This document shows, piece by piece, positions 6,423 to 11,383 of a stretch of DNA of 27,686 nt. The notes below the pieces were generated by a model. The model saw only the letters and a list, made by a program, of their open reading frames with translations. It ran no database searches and had not been told where the DNA came from. This DNA is from a virus: UHGV virus genome UHGV-0385766; one strand, given 5' to 3'. The number at the start of each line of letters is the position of its first letter. The first letter of the stretch is position 1. The translations under genes and the position numbers were made by a program.

Positions 6423-6671
6423 TTAGTGAACAAACCACTCGTCAGCAGATTCCCAGGTATCTTTCAGAGTCTCCTGAACAAAAGTTTTTGCAGAATCCTT
6501 ATCTGCGATGCGTGTAACAGAAAGGCCATCGTTGCTGGTGGCTTTTACGAGCACCTCTACATCGTCATAACGTTTACTGATGCGTCGGGTTAATTCTTCC
6601 TTTAACGCATCCACAGCACCGGTTGGCATTTTAGTCATTTTTTCTTTGGCTATGCAGATTTCAATACGCAT
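6423..6671 (-). CDS. dinI: DinI-like protein (DNA damage-inducible protein I family)
   Basis: 82-aa ORF; [11 protein letters not shown]...[11 protein letters not shown] matches the DinI N- and C-terminal signatures from memory; GAGGG Shine-Dalgarno 6 nt upstream of ATG. Confidence 0.75.
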
Positions 6672-6732: not shown

Positions 6733-7830
6733 TCAAGAGGTCTTATTCCTGCTCCTTTGGAGCTCTTCAAAACGATTATGTAAAGATTTCGGATACAGTT
6801 CGGTATATACCTGCCATAGCACGTTTAATGAACGATGCCCTGTAACCTGGGCTACTTCCTCAATACTAAAACCAGCCTCAAATAAGCGACTTGCCCCTTC
6901 TCTACGCAAATCATGGTATCGCAGATCCTTAATACCTAATTTGCTTCTTACCCTCTGAAATCCCGCAGTAACAGAAGTGCTGTTATATGGAAAAATGAAT
7001 TCCGATTTTTGGGGCTGTCGTTGGACGATATCCCAGGCTTCCCCAAGCAAGGCTACTTTCATGTGGTTGCCTTCCTTTTTGCGTGGATCTTTCCTGTCTC
7101 TTACGAGTATAGATTTTTGTTCCTGGTCGAGATCTTCCCATCGTAACCGGCATACTTCTCCGATTCGCATACAGGACCACACAGAAAATTTGAGGATATC
7201 AACGAACGGAATTTTTGAGCATTTATGAGTAGATCGTTGTTGAAGGCCTTCAATGAGCATGTCCAGTTCATCAGATGCTGGTCTACGATTACGACGGTTT
7301 GATTTACCAATCAAACCAAGTTTAAGTAGATATGGACGAGCACTTTTCGCCGGGTTTGATGTGTAATTAATTCCGTATACAGGTTTGGCCGCATCCAGAA
7401 CACTGCCAAGATAACTAACATCGTGGCTGACTGTTGCTGGACCTGCACCAGCGTTGTTTCTTAGCCTGCAATGTTCAATTACGTCATTTTCTGTCAGTTC
7501 AGATAGTTTGATCGCGGATATGTCACTATCCATAAGCAGTTCCAGCACATATCTTTTAGTACGGCCAGCTTTACCTCCAGCATTTGGGTCATTTAAATAT
7601 TTGTGTAGTAAGTCACGGACTGTAAGTCCGTCAACTGCATTTGATGATGGAATGCCATATAGATCTAATTCCATCACTTTCTGTGTGCCCCATGTTTTGG
7701 CATGAGCATGTTTAGGGAATGTTTTGCTTTCCCTGTAAGTGATAACACCTTTTTCTTTGATAATTACATTACAGCGATAGCGTGGTGTGCCATCGGATTT
7801 TAGTCGTTTCTCTATGTTATAGTACGCCAT
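6733..7830 (-). CDS. int: Tyrosine integrase (phage integrase family)
   Basis: 365-aa ORF; C-terminal catalytic region HDLRREGASRLFEAGFSIEEVAQVTGHRSLNVLWQVYTELY carries the R...HxxR...Y pattern. Confidence 0.9.
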   Translation of the reverse strand: MAYYNIEKRLKSDGTPRYRCNVIIKEKGVITYRESKTFPKHAHAKTWGTQKVMELDLYGIPSSNAVDGLTVRDLLHKYLNDPNAGGKAGRTKRYVLELLMDSDISAIKLSELTENDVIEHCRLRNNAGAGPATVSHDVSYLGSVLDAAKPVYGINYTSNPAKSARPYLLKLGLIGKSNRRNRRPASDELDMLIEGLQQRSTHKCSKIPFVDILKFSVWSCMRIGEVCRLRWEDLDQEQKSILVRDRKDPRKKEGNHMKVALLGEAWDIVQRQPQKSEFIFPYNSTSVTAGFQRVRSKLGIKDLRYHDLRREGASRLFEAGFSIEEVAQVTGHRSLNVLWQVYTELYPKSLHNRFEELQRSRNKTS

Positions 7831-7848
7831 TACACGACCTCGTTATTT

Positions 7849-8085
7849 CGGGTTCCCATAAAGCGTGGGAACCTGTGCGGGAACCTAACGCGAGAAAAAT
7901 AGCCTGAAATGTTCAAAAATGCACGATAATCATGAAACACAAAAAATTAATCAAACCAGCGTGATGCCTGAAAAAACTGGTGTTTACTGGAATTCTCGGT
8001 TTAGCATTGCTCCTATGCTTGATAGGATGTACCGTTTTTGAAAAACAACTAGTTATACACTTTGTGGGAGCCTATTGGGAACCTG
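7849..8085. other. Candidate attP / integrase arm-site region
   Basis: GGTTCCC (7851-7857) inverted against GGGAACC (7867-7873); GGGAACC again at 7879-7885 and 8077-8083; identical 10-mer TGGGAACCTG at 7866-7875 and 8076-8085; GGGAGCC at 8065-8071; AT-rich, non-coding. Confidence 0.3.
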
Positions 8086-8143
8086 AAGTTTTGCTCTTTC
8101 TATTCATATCTATTCATAAAGCACCATTTGCTGCCTTATCTGA

Positions 8144-8170
8144 TTGACCAAAAACAACCGCGGTTATAGA
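8144..8170 (+). promoter_or_regulatory. Candidate promoter of the two-gene cassette
   Basis: TTGACC (8144-8149) and TATAGA (8165-8170); the 15-bp spacer is short, so this is tentative. Confidence 0.25.
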
Positions 8171-8225
8171 CTTTGCTCCAAATATCTAAGGCTATTGCTT
8201 AGTAAGTAAAACAGTTGAGGTTGCC

Positions 8226-8765
8226 ATGAATCCGTTTAACGCCATTACTTTTGCTGCATTGTGCGGGCCTCTGGCTTGTCCTGCTGCTATGGCGCAGGAG
8301 TTCATCATCCAGCCAGCCCCTGTGATTGCTAAACCTTTTGAGTACTCTCCTTCTGTTGAGGAATTCTCACGCAAAATGGAAGAGGGTAAGGAGATCTTGC
8401 AAAAGTTAACAATTGCAGCAGATGACTACTATATCTGTTTGATTGATCTTAATAGCCAAGATGCTCGCGAGTTTGTTTCCAAAAACGGGACAGATACGAC
8501 AGAGGCATGCGAAATGTTCCTGCGTGCTTTTGAAGAAGAAGTGAAGCGTACAATTGAATCGCCTCTGCCTGAATTTATCAGGTCAGAACTGAAGGTTTAC
8601 TGGCGTCATATTGCTAAAGCTCGCTCATCTGTCACTCGCCTTAACAATTACATAAAGAGCATATTTAAAGAAACTGTTACTTTTAGCGGGCGCGCGGATC
8701 TTGCTGGAATTGCAGCACTAGCTAGTCACACATCAAATAAGCTAAAATCGATGCAATTTCACTAA
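8226..8765 (+). CDS. Hypothetical 179-aa protein with weakly hydrophobic N-terminus; first gene of cassette
   Basis: ORF with GAGG Shine-Dalgarno 5 nt upstream of ATG; low GC; no family recognised; N-terminus MNPFNAITFAALCGPLACPAAMAQE may be a signal peptide. Confidence 0.7.
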   Translation: MNPFNAITFAALCGPLACPAAMAQEFIIQPAPVIAKPFEYSPSVEEFSRKMEEGKEILQKLTIAADDYYICLIDLNSQDAREFVSKNGTDTTEACEMFLRAFEEEVKRTIESPLPEFIRSELKVYWRHIAKARSSVTRLNNYIKSIFKETVTFSGRADLAGIAALASHTSNKLKSMQFH

Positions 8766-8781
8766 CCGATAGCGGACGACC

Positions 8782-9216
8782 ATGCATCTAGAAGTCTCTA
8801 TTAATCCAGAAACTAGAGCTGAATTTTTTGATGAAGTTTTTCTCAAATTCCCGGAGCTAGAGTCTTCTATCATTGATGATTTCAAGAGATACAAAGCAAC
8901 CGGTGAGCTTCCGCATTATTTCGGTAGGGACGTTGCGTATACTCAGCCTTATGGTGCTTTTCGGGCTGGGTTGATGCATATCCATCTTTGTCTACCGCCA
9001 AATAAGTTTCCCGAGAAACTTCCACAACCGGATAGGGTCTGCAAGAAAGGTGATCCTGATAATGATGCTTGTCTTGTGTATGTCCAAGGTGAGCTTTATG
9101 AGAATAAATATTCACTCATTGCTATTATGTATCCCGATGCACATGAAAAAGCAAGAAAACATGATGTGATGAGCTATCTGGCGCGAATTGCCCAGAATTA
9201 TAAAGATGAAAACTAA
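8782..9216 (+). CDS. YafO-family toxin-like protein (putative ribosome-dependent mRNA interferase)
   Basis: 144-aa ORF 16 nt after the upstream gene; pattern DF..YK..G.LP..FGRD...HIHL...FP...LVY.QG...LIAI..P..H..AR matches my recollection of E. coli YafO. Recognition is from memory, not an alignment. Confidence 0.55.
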   Translation: MHLEVSINPETRAEFFDEVFLKFPELESSIIDDFKRYKATGELPHYFGRDVAYTQPYGAFRAGLMHIHLCLPPNKFPEKLPQPDRVCKKGDPDNDACLVYVQGELYENKYSLIAIMYPDAHEKARKHDVMSYLARIAQNYKDEN

Positions 9217-9236
9217 CCCGCCGAAGCGGGTTTTTT
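9217..9236. terminator. Intrinsic terminator between convergent genes, possibly bidirectional
   Basis: CCCGC (9217-9221), loop CGAA, GCGGG (9226-9230), TTTTTT (9231-9236); lies between the + gene ending 9216 and the - gene ending 9243. Confidence 0.6.
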
Positions 9237-9242
9237 GTGAGA

Positions 9243-9515
9243 TTAGTTATTTATTTTCCTATTTGTTCTTACCCTCTCCCATTCAATTCTGCCTTCTTCA
9301 CGCCGTTTATCTATATATTCAGCAAGATCCTGAATGTTGATGCAGCGCTTTGCTTTCTGTGATGTACCAACACGATAAGTCGGGATCGGCAACTGGCATG
9401 CATTTGCTTTCGCTTCTGCTGTGTTAGGGCTCATACCGAAATACTTTTGGCATACAGCTGACAGCTCAATGTTTGGGGTATTGAATTCAGCCATCAGTAA
9501 AAACAAGGTGTTCAT
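9243..9515 (-). CDS. PrtN-like / excisionase-like DNA-binding protein
   Basis: Track ORF 9243-9542 uses a GTG start; the internal ATG at 9515 has a GGAGAAA Shine-Dalgarno and gives the N-terminus MNTLFLLMAEF; last gene of the leftward operon. Confidence 0.5.
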   Translation of the reverse strand: MNTLFLLMAEFNTPNIELSAVCQKYFGMSPNTAEAKANACQLPIPTYRVGTSQKAKRCINIQDLAEYIDKRREEGRIEWERVRTNRKINN

Positions 9516-9551
9516 AATTTTCTCCATCAAAACCGGCTGCACCCGGGGAAA

Positions 9552-10124
9552 TCATAATTCTGTGCTGGTGGCAGGAATTAATTTCTGCCAGATAGCGGAA
9601 ACATATTTTGCCTGATGACGGGCATCGGCCAGGGCGTTGTGCCGTTCGCCATCGAAAGGCATGTCCATTTTTGGGTCGAATCCGATGGAACGCCCAAGCG
9701 TAACGATCGTGCGTACATCGTGGTCATTCCAGTATGCCCACGGGCAGATTTGTCCTGCTCGCTCATAAGCTCCACGTAAAATTACGTTGTCGAAGGTGGC
9801 CCCGTTACCCCAGACTTTTAAATATTTCGTATTGGCTGCGTGCCGGTTAATGAAATGATTTAGTTCTGAGAGAGCATCGCTGATCGACAAAGTATCATCA
9901 ATACAGATTGCAGCTCGTGCTTCAGGGCTTTGTTTCAACCACCACAGGATGGTATCGCCGTCAGGTGTAGCTCCTTGCCCCATAGCACTTTCCAGGCTAA
10001 CAACCGTATAGAATTCTTGTCCGATGTATCCGGTTTCTGGAGTGAAGAACAGCGCGCCAATGGAAACGATCGGTGCATCCTTATTTTTCCCCATCGTCTC
10101 AAGGTCGATCATTAAGTTGTTCAT
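9552..10124 (-). CDS. 3'-5' exonuclease (DnaQ-like fold)
   Basis: Start MNNLMIDLETMG at 10124 with AGGAGGTGA Shine-Dalgarno and ATGA overlap with the upstream stop; DxE exonuclease motif; the track ORF extends to 10178 as an N-terminal artefact. Confidence 0.7.
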   Translation of the reverse strand: MNNLMIDLETMGKNKDAPIVSIGALFFTPETGYIGQEFYTVVSLESAMGQGATPDGDTILWWLKQSPEARAAICIDDTLSISDALSELNHFINRHAANTKYLKVWGNGATFDNVILRGAYERAGQICPWAYWNDHDVRTIVTLGRSIGFDPKMDMPFDGERHNALADARHQAKYVSAIWQKLIPATSTEL

Positions 10125-10801
10125 CACTTCACCTCCTGCGGCGGTTCTGGTAGAGGCATCCAATTGATTACATCGCATTCAGGTATGCTGATATCATCAC
10201 CAAGCCACCCTTGACCTTCAGACCAGCATTGCACGTAATACCCGTATTCTGTGTTCACTACGCACCACTGCGCGTCGTTCGGCATTCGCTCACTACAGCT
10301 TATCCAACCATCCGGAATTACCGGAGAGTTGCCACCGGGAATATTTTCCGGAATATTTTGTTGTGCGTTTTGTGGTTGTTCGGATTTACCCTGAAGCATG
10401 GCGGCGCAGCAGGCGTTCCATGAAATTTCCTGAAGGGAACGACGAATCTGTGTGCTGCATATACTCCTCCCTGACTCCTGGCTGTTAAACCATGTTTCAA
10501 ATTCCGGCACTACTGGTGCTGGTTGGGTGGTGACATTGGCAAAGGCTGCACGCACCCCGGCCTTAATTTCCTCTACCTCATCAGCACCTGGCGATGAATC
10601 TGACAGTGCGTGATGGAATGCGTAAGCCATGTCGTCGTTGATTTCTACAGGCACACTATCAGCCTTGCGGCGCTCCTGTAGCTCGCGCAGAGCCGCTACA
10701 ACATAATGGCTATTGTGCTGGTCAGCCCACAGAATGAGCCGAATCAACGTTGCATTTGAAACGTATTCGTCTGTTAGTTTGCTATTGGTAAAAGTCGTCA
10801 T
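10124..10801 (-). CDS. DUF551 domain protein
   Basis: 225-aa ORF; Trp/Cys-rich C-terminal domain GWISCSERMPNDAQWCVV... typical of DUF551; start overlaps the HNH stop (ATGA at 10798-10801). Confidence 0.65.
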   Translation of the reverse strand: MTTFTNSKLTDEYVSNATLIRLILWADQHNSHYVVAALRELQERRKADSVPVEINDDMAYAFHHALSDSSPGADEVEEIKAGVRAAFANVTTQPAPVVPEFETWFNSQESGRSICSTQIRRSLQEISWNACCAAMLQGKSEQPQNAQQNIPENIPGGNSPVIPDGWISCSERMPNDAQWCVVNTEYGYYVQCWSEGQGWLGDDISIPECDVINWMPLPEPPQEVK

Positions 10802-11163
10802 GCCGTAGCCCCTTCTTGATATTTTTCAAACCAGAACACAACCGGGTCAGATTTCATTTCAACCAACCCCATACGAACCAGCGCTTTGCCTTTCCCGGAC
10901 GCAAGGAATTCACGACGACCATCACTGATAATTCGCCGATAATCTTCCAGGCTACTGCAATGCTTATGCAGATTGCATGGGTGGCATGCCGGAACCATGT
11001 TGGATATATCGTCACGTTCCTGGTGAAGCATATTTCCAGCAAAACGAATGACCGGTTTTACATGGTCTGCATGCCACTTTTCGCCAAGTTCGCAGCCGCA
11101 ATAAGCGCAGCGACCGCCGAACTTCATGCGCAGTTCTGCACGTTGTTTTTTCGTCAGTGCCAT
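10798..11163 (-). CDS. HNH endonuclease
   Basis: CAYCGC...HADH...CHPCNLHKH zinc-finger/HNH motifs; start MALTKK at 11163 with AAGGAAA Shine-Dalgarno. Confidence 0.7.
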   Translation of the reverse strand: MALTKKQRAELRMKFGGRCAYCGCELGEKWHADHVKPVIRFAGNMLHQERDDISNMVPACHPCNLHKHCSSLEDYRRIISDGRREFLASGKGKALVRMGLVEMKSDPVVFWFEKYQEGATA

Positions 11164-11164
11164 A

Positions 11165-11383
11165 TCAGCTTTCCTTATATGGATTAATTTTATTGTGCAG
11201 TGTGTTGAATGACGCCCATACCACGTCGTTATACAATTCAATAACTGGCTCAATTATTTTCCCGATTCCCCATACCAGAATTAACGGGGATATCGGTATC
11301 ATCAACACGATAAACAGAATGAGAAACAGAAATTCTGTCGCTCTACTTTTTCGCGGATATTCTTTTCTGAATAATGTAGTCAT
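11165..11383 (-). CDS. Small single-pass membrane protein (72 aa)
   Basis: Hydrophobic segment FLFLILFIVLMIPISPLILVWGIG; AT-rich; preceded by an AGGAGG-hairpin-AUG arrangement. Confidence 0.5.
   Translation of the reverse strand: MTTLFRKEYPRKSRATEFLFLILFIVLMIPISPLILVWGIGKIIEPVIELYNDVVWASFNTLHNKINPYKES

What the first reader, a model, noticed from the sequence alone, without database searches (positions are those of the whole stretch)
8100..9240. Low-GC two-gene cassette at the integrase hotspot: unknown 179-aa protein plus YafO-like toxin homolog
The pair 8226-8765 / 8782-9216 is an independent unit: opposite in orientation to the integrase and to the leftward early operon, preceded by an AT-rich promoter region and closed by a hairpin terminator at 9217-9236. 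It is clearly more AT-rich than the flanking tail and early genes, as expected for a horizontally acquired insert. The downstream protein matches the conserved pattern I recall for YafO, a ribosome-dependent mRNA interferase. The upstream partner is 179 aa with a hydrophobic N-terminus and no resemblance to the small YafN/RelB-type antitoxin that normally precedes YafO. A known toxin fold paired with an uncharacterised, possibly exported partner next to attP/int is the profile of an undescribed toxin-antitoxin, abortive-infection or superinfection-exclusion system.
Basis: partly seen in the sequence, partly recalled or inferred. Interest (0 to 1): 0.8.

Follow-up and report, generated by a model that had tools for sequence, protein, structure and literature searches.

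The report
YafO toxin with signal-peptide partner
A self-contained two-gene insert in an E. coli prophage pairs a known kind of RNA-cutting toxin with an unstudied partner that looks built for export from the cell, which no described antidote protein does.

Summary
8226-8765 (A, 179 aa) and 8782-9216 (B, 144 aa) are real genes in one transcription unit with its own promoter (8144-8172), a strong ribosome-binding site and a terminator overlapping B's stop codon (9215-9240).

B is a YafO-family toxin: Pfam PF13957 E=2e-21, 36% identical to K-12 YafO, and a confident model with a RelE/HigB fold. It is a separate subfamily from K-12 YafO.

A has no Pfam, PDB or fold relative and no similarity to YafN. 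Its family is tiny, 23 clusters among 1.84 billion representative proteins.

In every locus with readable upstream sequence (43 distinct pairs; Escherichia, Pantoea, Serratia, Yersinia, Photorhabdus, Xenorhabdus, Gilliamella), the 144-aa YafO gene directly follows an A homologue. All begin with a Sec-type signal-peptide-like N-terminus. K-12-type YafO pairs with YafN instead.

The cassette sits at different positions in unrelated prophages, so it moves as a unit. Here it lies beside attP in dusA, a slot that holds other cargo in sister phages.

Best reading: a toxin-antitoxin-like prophage accessory cassette (a moron) with an unprecedented, probably exported partner. Toxicity, neutralisation, export and any anti-phage role are untested. 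Databases already label B as YafO and, in one record, A as "YafM antitoxin", without evidence.

The parts
7919..8041 (+). Context: phage-borne substitute for the 5' end of dusA, with the attP crossover region near 8008-8024. In lysogens the host's own dusA promoter and first ~35 codons end up directly upstream of the cassette, on the same strand.
   Evidence: Alignment of the window with a lysogen junction: about 85% identity over the dusA 5' part, then 100% from about 8022 onward. RefSeq annotates a truncated tRNA-dihydrouridine synthase just before A.
8144..8172 (+). Sigma-70-type promoter of the cassette (TTGACC, 17 nt, TAGACT).
   Evidence: Consensus scan. Conserved in the ENNIH3, Phytobacter and Pantoea cassettes, and partly in Yersinia.
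8156..8165 (.). IR1: perfect 10-bp palindrome AACCGCGGTT inside the promoter spacer. Candidate operator.
   Evidence: in six of the eight distinct upstream regions examined, a palindrome occupies the promoter -35/spacer region with a different sequence in each clade (ATAACT-CC-AGTTAT, ATGTCT-AA-AGACAT, ACAAC-TGCG-GTTGT). No statistical test was run.
8181..8196 (.). IR2: AATATC-TAAG-GCTATT, just downstream of the -10 element. Arms pair at 5 of 6 positions in this window and at 6 of 6 in a sister copy. Candidate second operator or 5'-UTR hairpin.
   Evidence: ATAGC-N4-GCTAT, GATAAC-N4-GTTATC and CTATAGC-N4-GCTATAG occur at the same offset in different clades, with changes on both arms.
8217..8221 (+). 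Shine-Dalgarno sequence GAGGT, 4 nt before A's ATG.
   Evidence: GAGGT is invariant in all five upstream sequences aligned. This fixes the start codon and shows that the hydrophobic N-terminus is translated.
8226..8765 (+). Gene A: 179-aa partner protein. Residues 1-23 are signal-peptide-like (8226-8294, proposed cut AMA|QE). Residues ~25-43 are a disordered Pro-rich linker. Residues 44-174 form a helical bundle. The C-terminal -FH is conserved.
8782..9216 (+). Gene B: 144-aa YafO-family toxin with a RelE/BECR fold (the nuclease fold shared by RelE/ParE-type toxins). Weak ribosome-binding site, 16 nt after A's stop.
9215..9240 (.). Intrinsic terminator (AACCCGCCGAAGCGGGTT plus T-run) overlapping B's stop codon. 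It reads as a terminator on both strands and is shared with the convergent PrtN-like gene.
   Evidence: Conserved after B in other genera with compensatory stem changes.

Best explanation
The cassette is a mobile prophage accessory unit: one promoter, two genes, one terminator.

Shown:
- B is a YafO-family endoribonuclease-type toxin with a RelE fold.
- It keeps the polar residues shared with K-12 YafO.

Shown by comparative genomics: A is B's obligate partner. It has taken the place that the Phd/YefM-type antitoxin YafN holds in the K-12-type subfamily.

Inferred:
1. A counteracts B, so the pair works like a toxin-antitoxin module with the antitoxin gene first.
2. A carries a Sec-type signal peptide. 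Its cytoplasmic precursor would therefore hold B in check, and export to the periplasm would continually drain the free pool. Export would then do the job, alone or with proteolysis, that protease lability does for classical antitoxins.
3. When cassette expression stops, B is freed and cleaves mRNA, arresting the cell. Triggers could be host shut-off by a superinfecting phage or loss of the prophage.
4. The likely payoff for the prophage is abortive-infection-type defence of the lysogen population, prophage addiction, or both.

The palindromes in and just after the promoter suggest autoregulation. That also requires a cytoplasmic pool of a cassette-encoded DNA-binding species.
For: B is a YafO-family toxin.
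- PF13957 E=1.9e-21.
- 36% identity to K-12 YafO, with the HIH, Q..R, LVY and P.H motifs aligned.

Linkage of A and B.
- All 43 distinct upstream partners of the 144-aa YafO gene hit the A-family HMM.
- The gap between the genes ranges from -4 to +35 bp.
- The same pair sits at different positions in unrelated prophages of Yersinia, Serratia, Photorhabdus, Gilliamella, Pantoea and Enterobacteriaceae.
- All five loci found with A as the query also carry B.
- The cassette is in 49 of 5426 complete E. coli genomes at >=99.5% identity. Both genes are present in full in 48 of them, and the one partial match stops at the start of its record.

Partner swap. K-12-type YafO (131-134 aa) is preceded by a 95-97-aa Phd/YefM-type protein at non-phage chromosomal loci.

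Signal-peptide features hold in all clades despite sequence turnover.
- Length is 22-30 residues, with a basic n-region in most clades and 16-28 uncharged residues in a row.
- Small residues sit at -3/-1, often with Pro around -5.
- The start of the mature protein is acidic or neutral.
- AlphaFold gives an isolated N-terminal helix, a disordered linker, then a helical bundle.

Expression logic resembles a toxin-antitoxin operon. A has a strong conserved Shine-Dalgarno sequence and B a weak one. Clade-specific palindromes sit in the promoter.

Decay pattern. A Photorhabdus copy has a truncated B beside an intact A.

Neighbourhood.
- ParDE lies beside the cassette in Yersinia.
- A DUF4065 gene and a hypothetical gene occupy the same slot in phage phiSTEC1575-Stx2k. 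From my own knowledge, DUF4065 is the 'Panacea' antitoxin domain.
Against: - Nothing here demonstrates toxicity, binding, neutralisation, export or any phage phenotype.
- An exported protein is an awkward antitoxin for a cytoplasmic RNase, and no precedent was found.
- A has no recognisable DNA-binding domain, so it is unclear what would bind the palindromes.
- The N-terminal segment is more conserved than the mature domain: 84% against 55% pairwise identity in the close family.
- A shared N-terminal motif is visible even at ~20% overall identity. That is unusual for a plain signal peptide and could mean it is a binding helix instead.
- The E. coli clade has no basic residue in the n-region and a weak hydrophobic core.
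- Cysteine counts in the mature domain are often odd (read by eye), a weak argument against periplasmic life.
- No proper signal-peptide predictor and no complex prediction could be run.
Confidence: 0.5

Rival explanations
1. Ordinary cytoplasmic type II toxin-antitoxin pair with a new antitoxin fold. The hydrophobic N-terminal helix of A is not a signal peptide but the element that docks into the toxin's groove. The helical bundle dimerises and binds the promoter palindromes.
For: - The N-terminal segment is the best-conserved part of A: 84% against 55%.
- It keeps a recognisable motif, M-x-x-[FL]-N...AA..G.L.Q[PQ], even in members at ~20% identity.
- Clade-specific palindromes in the promoter imply a cytoplasmic, cassette-encoded DNA binder.
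- Odd cysteine counts in the mature part.
- The E. coli clade lacks a basic n-region.
Against: - The stretch has 16-28 residues with no charge at all. Most clades precede it with K/R and end it with small residues at -3/-1 and a Pro near -5.
- Such an apolar, proline-containing segment would be insoluble as a free docking helix.
- No HTH, RHH or other DNA-binding signature was found.
Confidence: 0.2
2. Two-compartment defence pair in which A is not the antitoxin. Mature A works in the periplasm, for example blocking DNA entry by superinfecting phage or sensing envelope damage. B is a cytoplasmic effector held in check another way, such as low translation, self-limiting cleavage of its own mRNA, or a need for a trigger.
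For: - Signal-peptide features hold across the family.
- The mature domain evolves fast (down to 14-25% identity while B stays at 51-64%), as expected for a protein facing phage or envelope partners.
- B has a weak ribosome-binding site.
- The cassette sits among prophage accessory and defence cargo.
Against: - Very tight and sometimes overlapping gene spacing (-4 to +35 bp) and strict linkage over deep divergence point to a stoichiometric or physical relationship.
- A YafO-type toxin with the family's conserved residues intact normally needs a direct inhibitor.
- No third conserved gene or known RNA is present.
Confidence: 0.17
3. B is a domesticated, non-lethal RNase that regulates A or phage transcripts, comparable to the type V GhoS/GhoT logic in which an RNase limits an exported or membrane-active product. 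The cassette is then not a toxin-antitoxin module in the usual sense.
For: A is exported or membrane-directed and sits upstream with a strong ribosome-binding site. No classical antitoxin is present.
Against: - B retains the invariant His/Arg/Gln/Tyr set shared with toxic K-12 YafO and is under strong purifying selection (68% mean column identity).
- Truncated B copies occur beside an intact A, which suggests B is the costly gene.
- The predicted mature A is a soluble helical bundle with no transmembrane segment after the signal-like N-terminus, unlike a membrane-lytic peptide.
Confidence: 0.08

Closest known systems
yafN-yafO of E. coli K-12 (type II toxin-antitoxin system; YafO is a ribosome-associated mRNA interferase, PF13957)
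   Same: The toxin belongs to the same Pfam family and has a RelE-superfamily (BECR) fold, as YafO is classed (PMC11980606). The conserved motifs align. The partner gene comes first and the genes are closely spaced.
   Different: - Only 36% identity, and B scores far below the NCBIfam equivalog cut-off (75.8 against 153 bits). It forms a separate 144-aa subfamily.
- The partner is not YafN. It is 179 aa and all-helical, belongs to no known family, and has a signal-peptide-like N-terminus.
- The cassette is phage-borne and mobile. The K-12 genes sit directly downstream of dinB on the chromosome, and two other K-12-type pairs lie at non-phage chromosomal loci.
Other RelE/ParE-superfamily modules with swapped partners (HigBA, YoeB-YefM, ParDE; survey in PMC11980606)
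   Same: A single-domain BECR toxin paired with a dedicated upstream partner. Exchange of antitoxin families between related toxins is a known theme.
   Different: None of the partner families I know of for these toxins carries a signal peptide, and a full-text search for exported or periplasmic antitoxins found none.
Toxin-antitoxin-chaperone (TAC) systems, e.g. HigBA-SecB of M. tuberculosis (from my own knowledge; mentioned in PMC11980606)
   Same: Conceptually similar: the fate of the antitoxin is tied to the protein-export or chaperone machinery rather than only to proteases.
   Different: TAC uses a third gene, a SecB-like chaperone, and a C-terminal chaperone-addiction tail. Its antitoxin is not exported. 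Here there are two genes and an N-terminal signal-like segment.
Variable cargo at the same att-proximal slot of sister lambdoid phages (phiSTEC1575-Stx2k DUF4065 gene plus a hypothetical gene; mEp460 gp23/gp24)
   Same: Same position between attP and the PrtN-like gene (annotated as excisionase in mEp460), same orientation, two small genes.
   Different: The proteins are unrelated. From my own knowledge, DUF4065 ('Panacea') antitoxins are cytoplasmic.

Membership tests
YafO toxin family (Pfam PF13957) | Sequence match above the Pfam gathering threshold over the whole domain | tested here: met
   76.5 bits against a cut-off of 25; residues 35-141 match profile positions 1-100 of 101.
YafO toxin family (Pfam PF13957) | Orthology with K-12 YafO (NCBIfam equivalog PRK09885) | tested here: not met
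   75.8 bits against a cut-off of 153. 36% identity. Separate homologue sets. B is a family member but not the same protein.
RelE/ParE (BECR-fold) toxin superfamily | RelE-like alpha/beta fold | tested here: met
RelE/ParE (BECR-fold) toxin superfamily | mRNA cleavage and growth inhibition | not testable with these tools
   Only conservation of polar residues shared with K-12 YafO could be checked (H66, H68, Q82, R85, Y100, H121).
yafNO-type module | Phd/YefM-type antitoxin (YafN) encoded immediately upstream | tested here: not met
   A against YafN gives E=1.7. A has no PhdYeFM hit. K-12-type loci do have it.
Type II toxin-antitoxin system (generic) | Two adjacent co-directional genes, tightly spaced and strictly co-inherited | tested here: met
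   16-nt gap here, -4 to +35 elsewhere. 43 of 43 distinct pairs. A and B both present in full in 48 of the 49 E. coli genomes; the other match is cut at a record start.
Type II toxin-antitoxin system (generic) | Cytoplasmic protein antitoxin that binds and neutralises the toxin | not testable with these tools
   No complex prediction or experiment was possible. The signal-peptide-like N-terminus argues against a purely cytoplasmic partner.
Type II toxin-antitoxin system (generic) | Autoregulation through palindromic operators in the promoter | tested here: inconclusive
   IR1 and IR2 are present, and they keep their symmetry while their sequence changes between clades. No DNA-binding domain was found in A or B, and no statistical test was done.
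Sec-exported protein (for A) | Three-part signal peptide with a signal-peptidase I site | tested here: inconclusive
SignalP was not available. The E. coli clade lacks a basic n-region. The segment is unusually conserved.
Catalogued anti-phage defence systems (PADLOC-DB 2.0.0) | Match to a defence-system protein model | tested here: not met
   No hit for B. Only a chance-level hit for A, E=0.017.
Prophage moron (accessory transcription unit) | Own promoter and terminator, position varying between phages, dispensable slot | tested here: met
   (promoter and terminator travel with the genes). (different positions). (other cargo in the same slot).

The most novel reading that the evidence does not exclude
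A RelE-superfamily toxin is controlled by an antitoxin whose lability comes from Sec export rather than proteolysis. More broadly, the cassette would link a cytoplasmic RNase to the state of the export machinery and the envelope. The unusually conserved signal segment would then serve two roles: export signal and toxin-binding or toxin-masking element. That would be a new way of setting the timer of a toxin-antitoxin or abortive-infection switch.
Probability: 0.2. Interest if true: 0.85.

Novelty: new variant of a known kind. Interest (0 to 1): 0.6.

Why it matters
Toxin-antitoxin modules of the RelE/ParE superfamily are among the best-studied bacterial stress and anti-phage switches. In all cases known to me, their antitoxins are small cytoplasmic proteins or RNAs.

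Here a whole subfamily of YafO toxins, spread through prophages of at least seven genera, is always paired with a protein that looks exported. If that partner is the antidote, it shows a new way to make an antitoxin short-lived and to connect a ribosome-targeting toxin to export or envelope status. If it is not, a conserved YafO toxin exists without a classical inhibitor, which is just as unexpected.

The system is easy to test. It occurs in E. coli, in isolated temperate phages (PhiR40_1, PhiR55_1), and is only about 1.1 kb.

Tried and rejected
- **Wrong start codon for A.** I considered whether the hydrophobic N-terminus is never translated. Rejected: GAGGT is invariant before the ATG, and synonymous changes run through the first 30 codons in all five sequences aligned.
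- **Internal start making a signal-less antitoxin.** No in-frame Met is conserved (M51 and M97 vary).
- **RNA antitoxin or known small RNA.** Rfam finds nothing above chance, and there are no tandem repeats of the ToxI kind.
- **Fold assignment for A.**
  - Foldseek against viral models gives nothing at E<=0.001.
  - A PDB sequence-profile search gives nothing.
  - Pfam scans of 18 diverse members give no recurring family.
  - The afdb50 library was not available.
- **Natural knock-outs.**
  - Three E. coli genomes with a 1-bp shorter match have both genes intact.
  - One metagenome copy with a truncated B has frameshifts in both genes, probably assembly error, and is uninformative.
- **Literature.** Searches on YafM/YafO, protein accessions, PHROG ids, exported antitoxins and YafO in prophage hotspots found no study of this pair. 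The 2009 YafO paper could not be read.
- **Lipoprotein reading of A.** By eye, only one distant member fits a lipobox pattern, so I did not adopt it.
Full report
**1. What is in the sequence**

Two + strand ORFs lie between the integrase (6733-7830, -) and a PrtN-like gene (9243-9542, -). They are A (8226-8765, 179 aa) and B (8782-9216, 144 aa).

- A sigma-70-like promoter, TTGACC-17-TAGACT, sits at 8144-8172.
- A GAGGT Shine-Dalgarno sequence lies 4 nt before A's ATG. It is invariant in the five upstream sequences aligned.
- The first 30 codons of A carry synonymous differences across those sequences, so the annotated start is right and conservation acts on the protein.
- B starts 16 nt after A's stop, behind a weak ribosome-binding site.
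- A 7-bp GC-rich hairpin followed by a T-run (9215-9240) overlaps B's stop codon and scores as a terminator on both strands.

GC content is 0.422 for the cassette, against 0.492 for the window, 0.561 for the tail genes and 0.459 for the early genes. The integrase (0.424) and the dinI-like gene (0.434) are equally AT-rich. Low GC therefore marks the whole att-proximal block, not the cassette alone.

**2. Where the window comes from**

The region is 99.6-99.8% identical to the temperate coliphages PhiR40_1 and PhiR55_1.

- The cassette itself occurs in 49 of 5426 complete E. coli genomes at >=99.5% identity. Both genes are present in full in 48, and the one partial match stops at the start of its record.
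- In the lysogens examined the prophage sits in dusA.
- Window 7919-8041 is a phage-borne substitute for the dusA 5' end. It is about 85% identical to the host sequence, and identity to the lysogen junction becomes complete from about 8022.
- After integration, the host's dusA promoter and first ~35 codons therefore lie about 185 bp upstream of the cassette on the same strand. Read-through from dusA into the cassette is possible but not shown.

Sister phages carry different cargo in the same slot. phiSTEC1575-Stx2k has a DUF4065-domain gene plus a hypothetical gene, and mEp460 has two hypothetical genes. The slot is a variable accessory position.

**3. Gene B**

- B matches Pfam YafO_toxin well above threshold: E=1.9e-21, 76.5 bits against a cut-off of 25.
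- It falls below the NCBIfam equivalog cut-off for K-12 YafO: 75.8 against 153 bits.
- It is 36% identical to K-12 YafO (E=2e-19), with the HIH, Q..R, LVY and P.H motifs aligned. These are among the invariant columns of B's own subfamily: H66, H68, Q82, R85, Y100, H121.
- The AlphaFold model is confident (pLDDT 95.9).

B is therefore a genuine YafO-family toxin homologue of a distinct 144-aa subfamily. Activity is inferred, not shown.

**4. Gene A**

A has no significant Pfam or NCBIfam match and no meaningful PADLOC match. It belongs to PHROG 8416, of unknown function, and has no similarity to YafN.

- The family is very small: 22 clusters in the 90%-identity collection, all named members from Enterobacterales. 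Only 23 representatives out of 1.84 billion match at E<=0.001, and the full-length ones are about 172-205 aa.
- The model (pLDDT 78.9) shows an N-terminal helix (residues 6-24), a disordered Pro-rich linker (25-43) and a helical bundle (44-174).
- Structure searches return only generic helical bundles.
- Across the whole family, E96 is invariant. R100, E103, R133, Y69 and the C-terminal -FH are nearly so.

**5. The key comparative result**

I collected 80 viral contigs carrying the 144-aa YafO gene, plus genome loci.

- Every locus with enough upstream sequence has a 175-202-aa ORF ending -4 to +35 bp before the toxin gene.
- All 43 distinct upstream proteins hit an HMM built from A's close family, with E-values from 1e-98 to 6e-5 in that small set.
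- BLAST identity to A falls to 14-30%, or is lost, while B stays at 50-64%.
- K-12-type YafO (131-134 aa) is instead preceded by a 95-97-aa Phd/YefM-type protein at non-phage chromosomal loci.

The cassette occupies different positions in unrelated prophages:

| Host | Position of the cassette |
|---|---|
| E. coli, Enterobacteriaceae ENNIH3, Phytobacter | Prophage end beside the dusA attachment site |
| Yersinia | P2-like tail cluster, next to ParDE |
| Serratia | Among tail genes (tail terminator to tape measure) |
| Photorhabdus | Baseplate cluster |
| Gilliamella | Between tail-fibre and lysis genes |

The stop-codon-overlapping terminator travels with the cassette and shows compensatory stem changes, for example CCCGC/GCGGG against CCCAC/GTGGG. 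It is present in 29 of 46 distinct downstream sequences. The unit that moves is promoter, A, B and terminator.

**6. Is A exported?**

Every clade of A starts with a segment that has the layout of a Sec signal peptide, although the sequences differ:

- MNLSLRSCLAVVLFGGVLSVPSFSA|G
- MARTKIPFSKVAMLSLALSVSTSCAQLAAA|TP
- MKTNSLLKHCFAAILSGGILSVPSYSLA|D
- MANHSVINSAILAALFAFSSQA|DE
- here, MNPFNAITFAALCGPLACPAAMA|QE

The metrics were length 22-30, 16-28 consecutive uncharged residues, small residues at -3/-1, and an acidic or neutral start to the mature protein.

Four points speak against a plain signal peptide:
- In A's close family, residues 1-24 are the most conserved part: 84% pairwise identity, against 55% for the bundle and 24% for the linker.
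- A shared motif is still visible in members at ~20% overall identity.
- The E. coli clade has no basic n-region residue and a weak hydrophobic core.
- Mature-domain cysteine counts are often odd (by eye).

I put export at roughly 0.7. I also suspect the segment has a second, sequence-specific role. No dedicated predictor was available.

**7. Regulation**

Two inverted repeats flank the -10 element.
- IR1 (8156-8165, AACCGCGGTT) lies in the promoter spacer.
- IR2 (8181-8196) lies just downstream of the -10.

Between clades the sequences change, but the symmetry and position mostly persist. IR2 recurs at the same offset in seven of eight distinct upstream regions, for example ATAGC-N4-GCTAT, GATAAC-N4-GTTATC and CTATAGC-N4-GCTATAG. 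A promoter palindrome like IR1 is present in six. This fits operators for a cassette-encoded regulator, as in classical toxin-antitoxin operons. For IR2 it could equally reflect a 5'-UTR hairpin. No DNA-binding domain was found in either protein, and I did not test significance.

**8. Mechanism**

The best-supported reading is a toxin-antitoxin-like module in which B is the RNase toxin and A its dedicated controlling partner (confidence about 0.5).

The supporting evidence is:
- gene order, tight spacing and strict linkage;
- the strong-then-weak translation signals;
- the replacement of YafN;
- a truncated B beside an intact A in one Photorhabdus genome;
- toxin-antitoxin neighbours in the same hotspots.

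How an apparently exported protein could restrain a cytoplasmic toxin is the open question. My preferred inference is that the precursor neutralises B and export drains the free pool, which makes the antidote short-lived.

The rivals are:
1. A is cytoplasmic and its N-terminal helix docks on B.
2. A acts in the periplasm and is not the antidote.
3. B is a domesticated regulatory RNase.

The biological role, whether abortive infection, exclusion or prophage addiction, is inferred only from context.

**9. What is already known**

- NCBI annotates B as a YafO-family toxin and A as hypothetical.
- The PhiR40_1 record labels the pair "YafM antitoxin / YafO toxin".
- A pangenome paper lists a "YafO/YafM" system from automated annotation (PMC10991766).
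- I found no experimental work on the pair and no report of an exported antitoxin.
- A 2025 survey of the superfamily lists PF_YafO as a small family of about 1000 members with antitoxin-then-toxin gene order. Its YafO passages do not discuss alternative partners (PMC11980606).

**10. Verdict**

The toxin is a new member of a known family. The obligate pairing with a signal-peptide-bearing partner of unknown fold is a new variant of the toxin-antitoxin theme and is worth experimental follow-up. Interest 0.6.

Noticed in passing
window 7919-8041 (attP crossover about 8008-8024): The 40-codon ORF is a phage-borne copy of the dusA 5' end, about 85% identical to the host's. On integration it would replace the host's dusA 5' end, and the displaced host dusA promoter and first ~35 codons then point into the cassette.
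   Followed up: partly
window 8099-8118: Perfect tandem direct repeat TCTATTCATA x2 between attP and the cassette promoter. It could be a recombinase or IHF arm site, or part of the regulatory region. It is conserved in the ENNIH3 sequence only in part.
   Followed up: no
window 9243-9542 (-): PrtN (pyocin activator) family protein convergent with B. The homologue in phage mEp460 is annotated as the excisionase, so this is probably the phage's Xis rather than a transcription activator.
   Followed up: partly
window 6423-6671 (-): DinI-like protein (PF06183, E=1.6e-19) encoded between the tail genes and the integrase. This is another accessory gene in the same AT-rich block.
   Followed up: no
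L104:308-1352 (phiSTEC1575-Stx2k) and L103:671-1574 (mEp460): The same att-proximal slot holds a DUF4065-domain gene plus a hypothetical gene in one sister phage and two hypothetical genes in another. The slot is a variable cargo hotspot.
   Followed up: partly
L003:2328-3176 (Yersinia mollaretii prophage): A ParD-ParE pair and an extra ParD-like fragment lie immediately upstream of the A-B cassette, between the tail tube and tape-measure genes. Two toxin-antitoxin cassettes are stacked in one tail-cluster insertion point.
   Followed up: no
L111:98-1098 (Photorhabdus antumapuensis): B is N-terminally truncated (115 aa, 92-nt gap after A) while A is intact (186 aa). This looks like a natural toxin-decay variant.
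   Followed up: partly
A family, C-terminus (window 8757-8762) and residues E96, R100, E103, R133: The last two residues (-FH) and a small set of charged residues are conserved across the A family, down to members at ~20% identity. A conserved free C-terminus could be a contact element, for example with the toxin's active site.
   Followed up: no
NZ_CM142763.1 (hit H12) and NZ_CP142787.1 (hit H41/H72): One chicken E. coli chromosome has integrase, attP and cassette contiguous (100% of 7800-9600 covered), as in the free phage, with three matching places. That suggests tandem or multiple prophages. A 55.6-kb record typed as a plasmid (strain SX12) also carries the cassette with a dusA fragment, possibly an excised or misassigned phage.
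   Followed up: no
window 10798-11253 (-): The 151-aa ORF contains CxxC...HxDH...CHxCNxxK motifs typical of HNH endonucleases. Read from the translation only.
   Followed up: no
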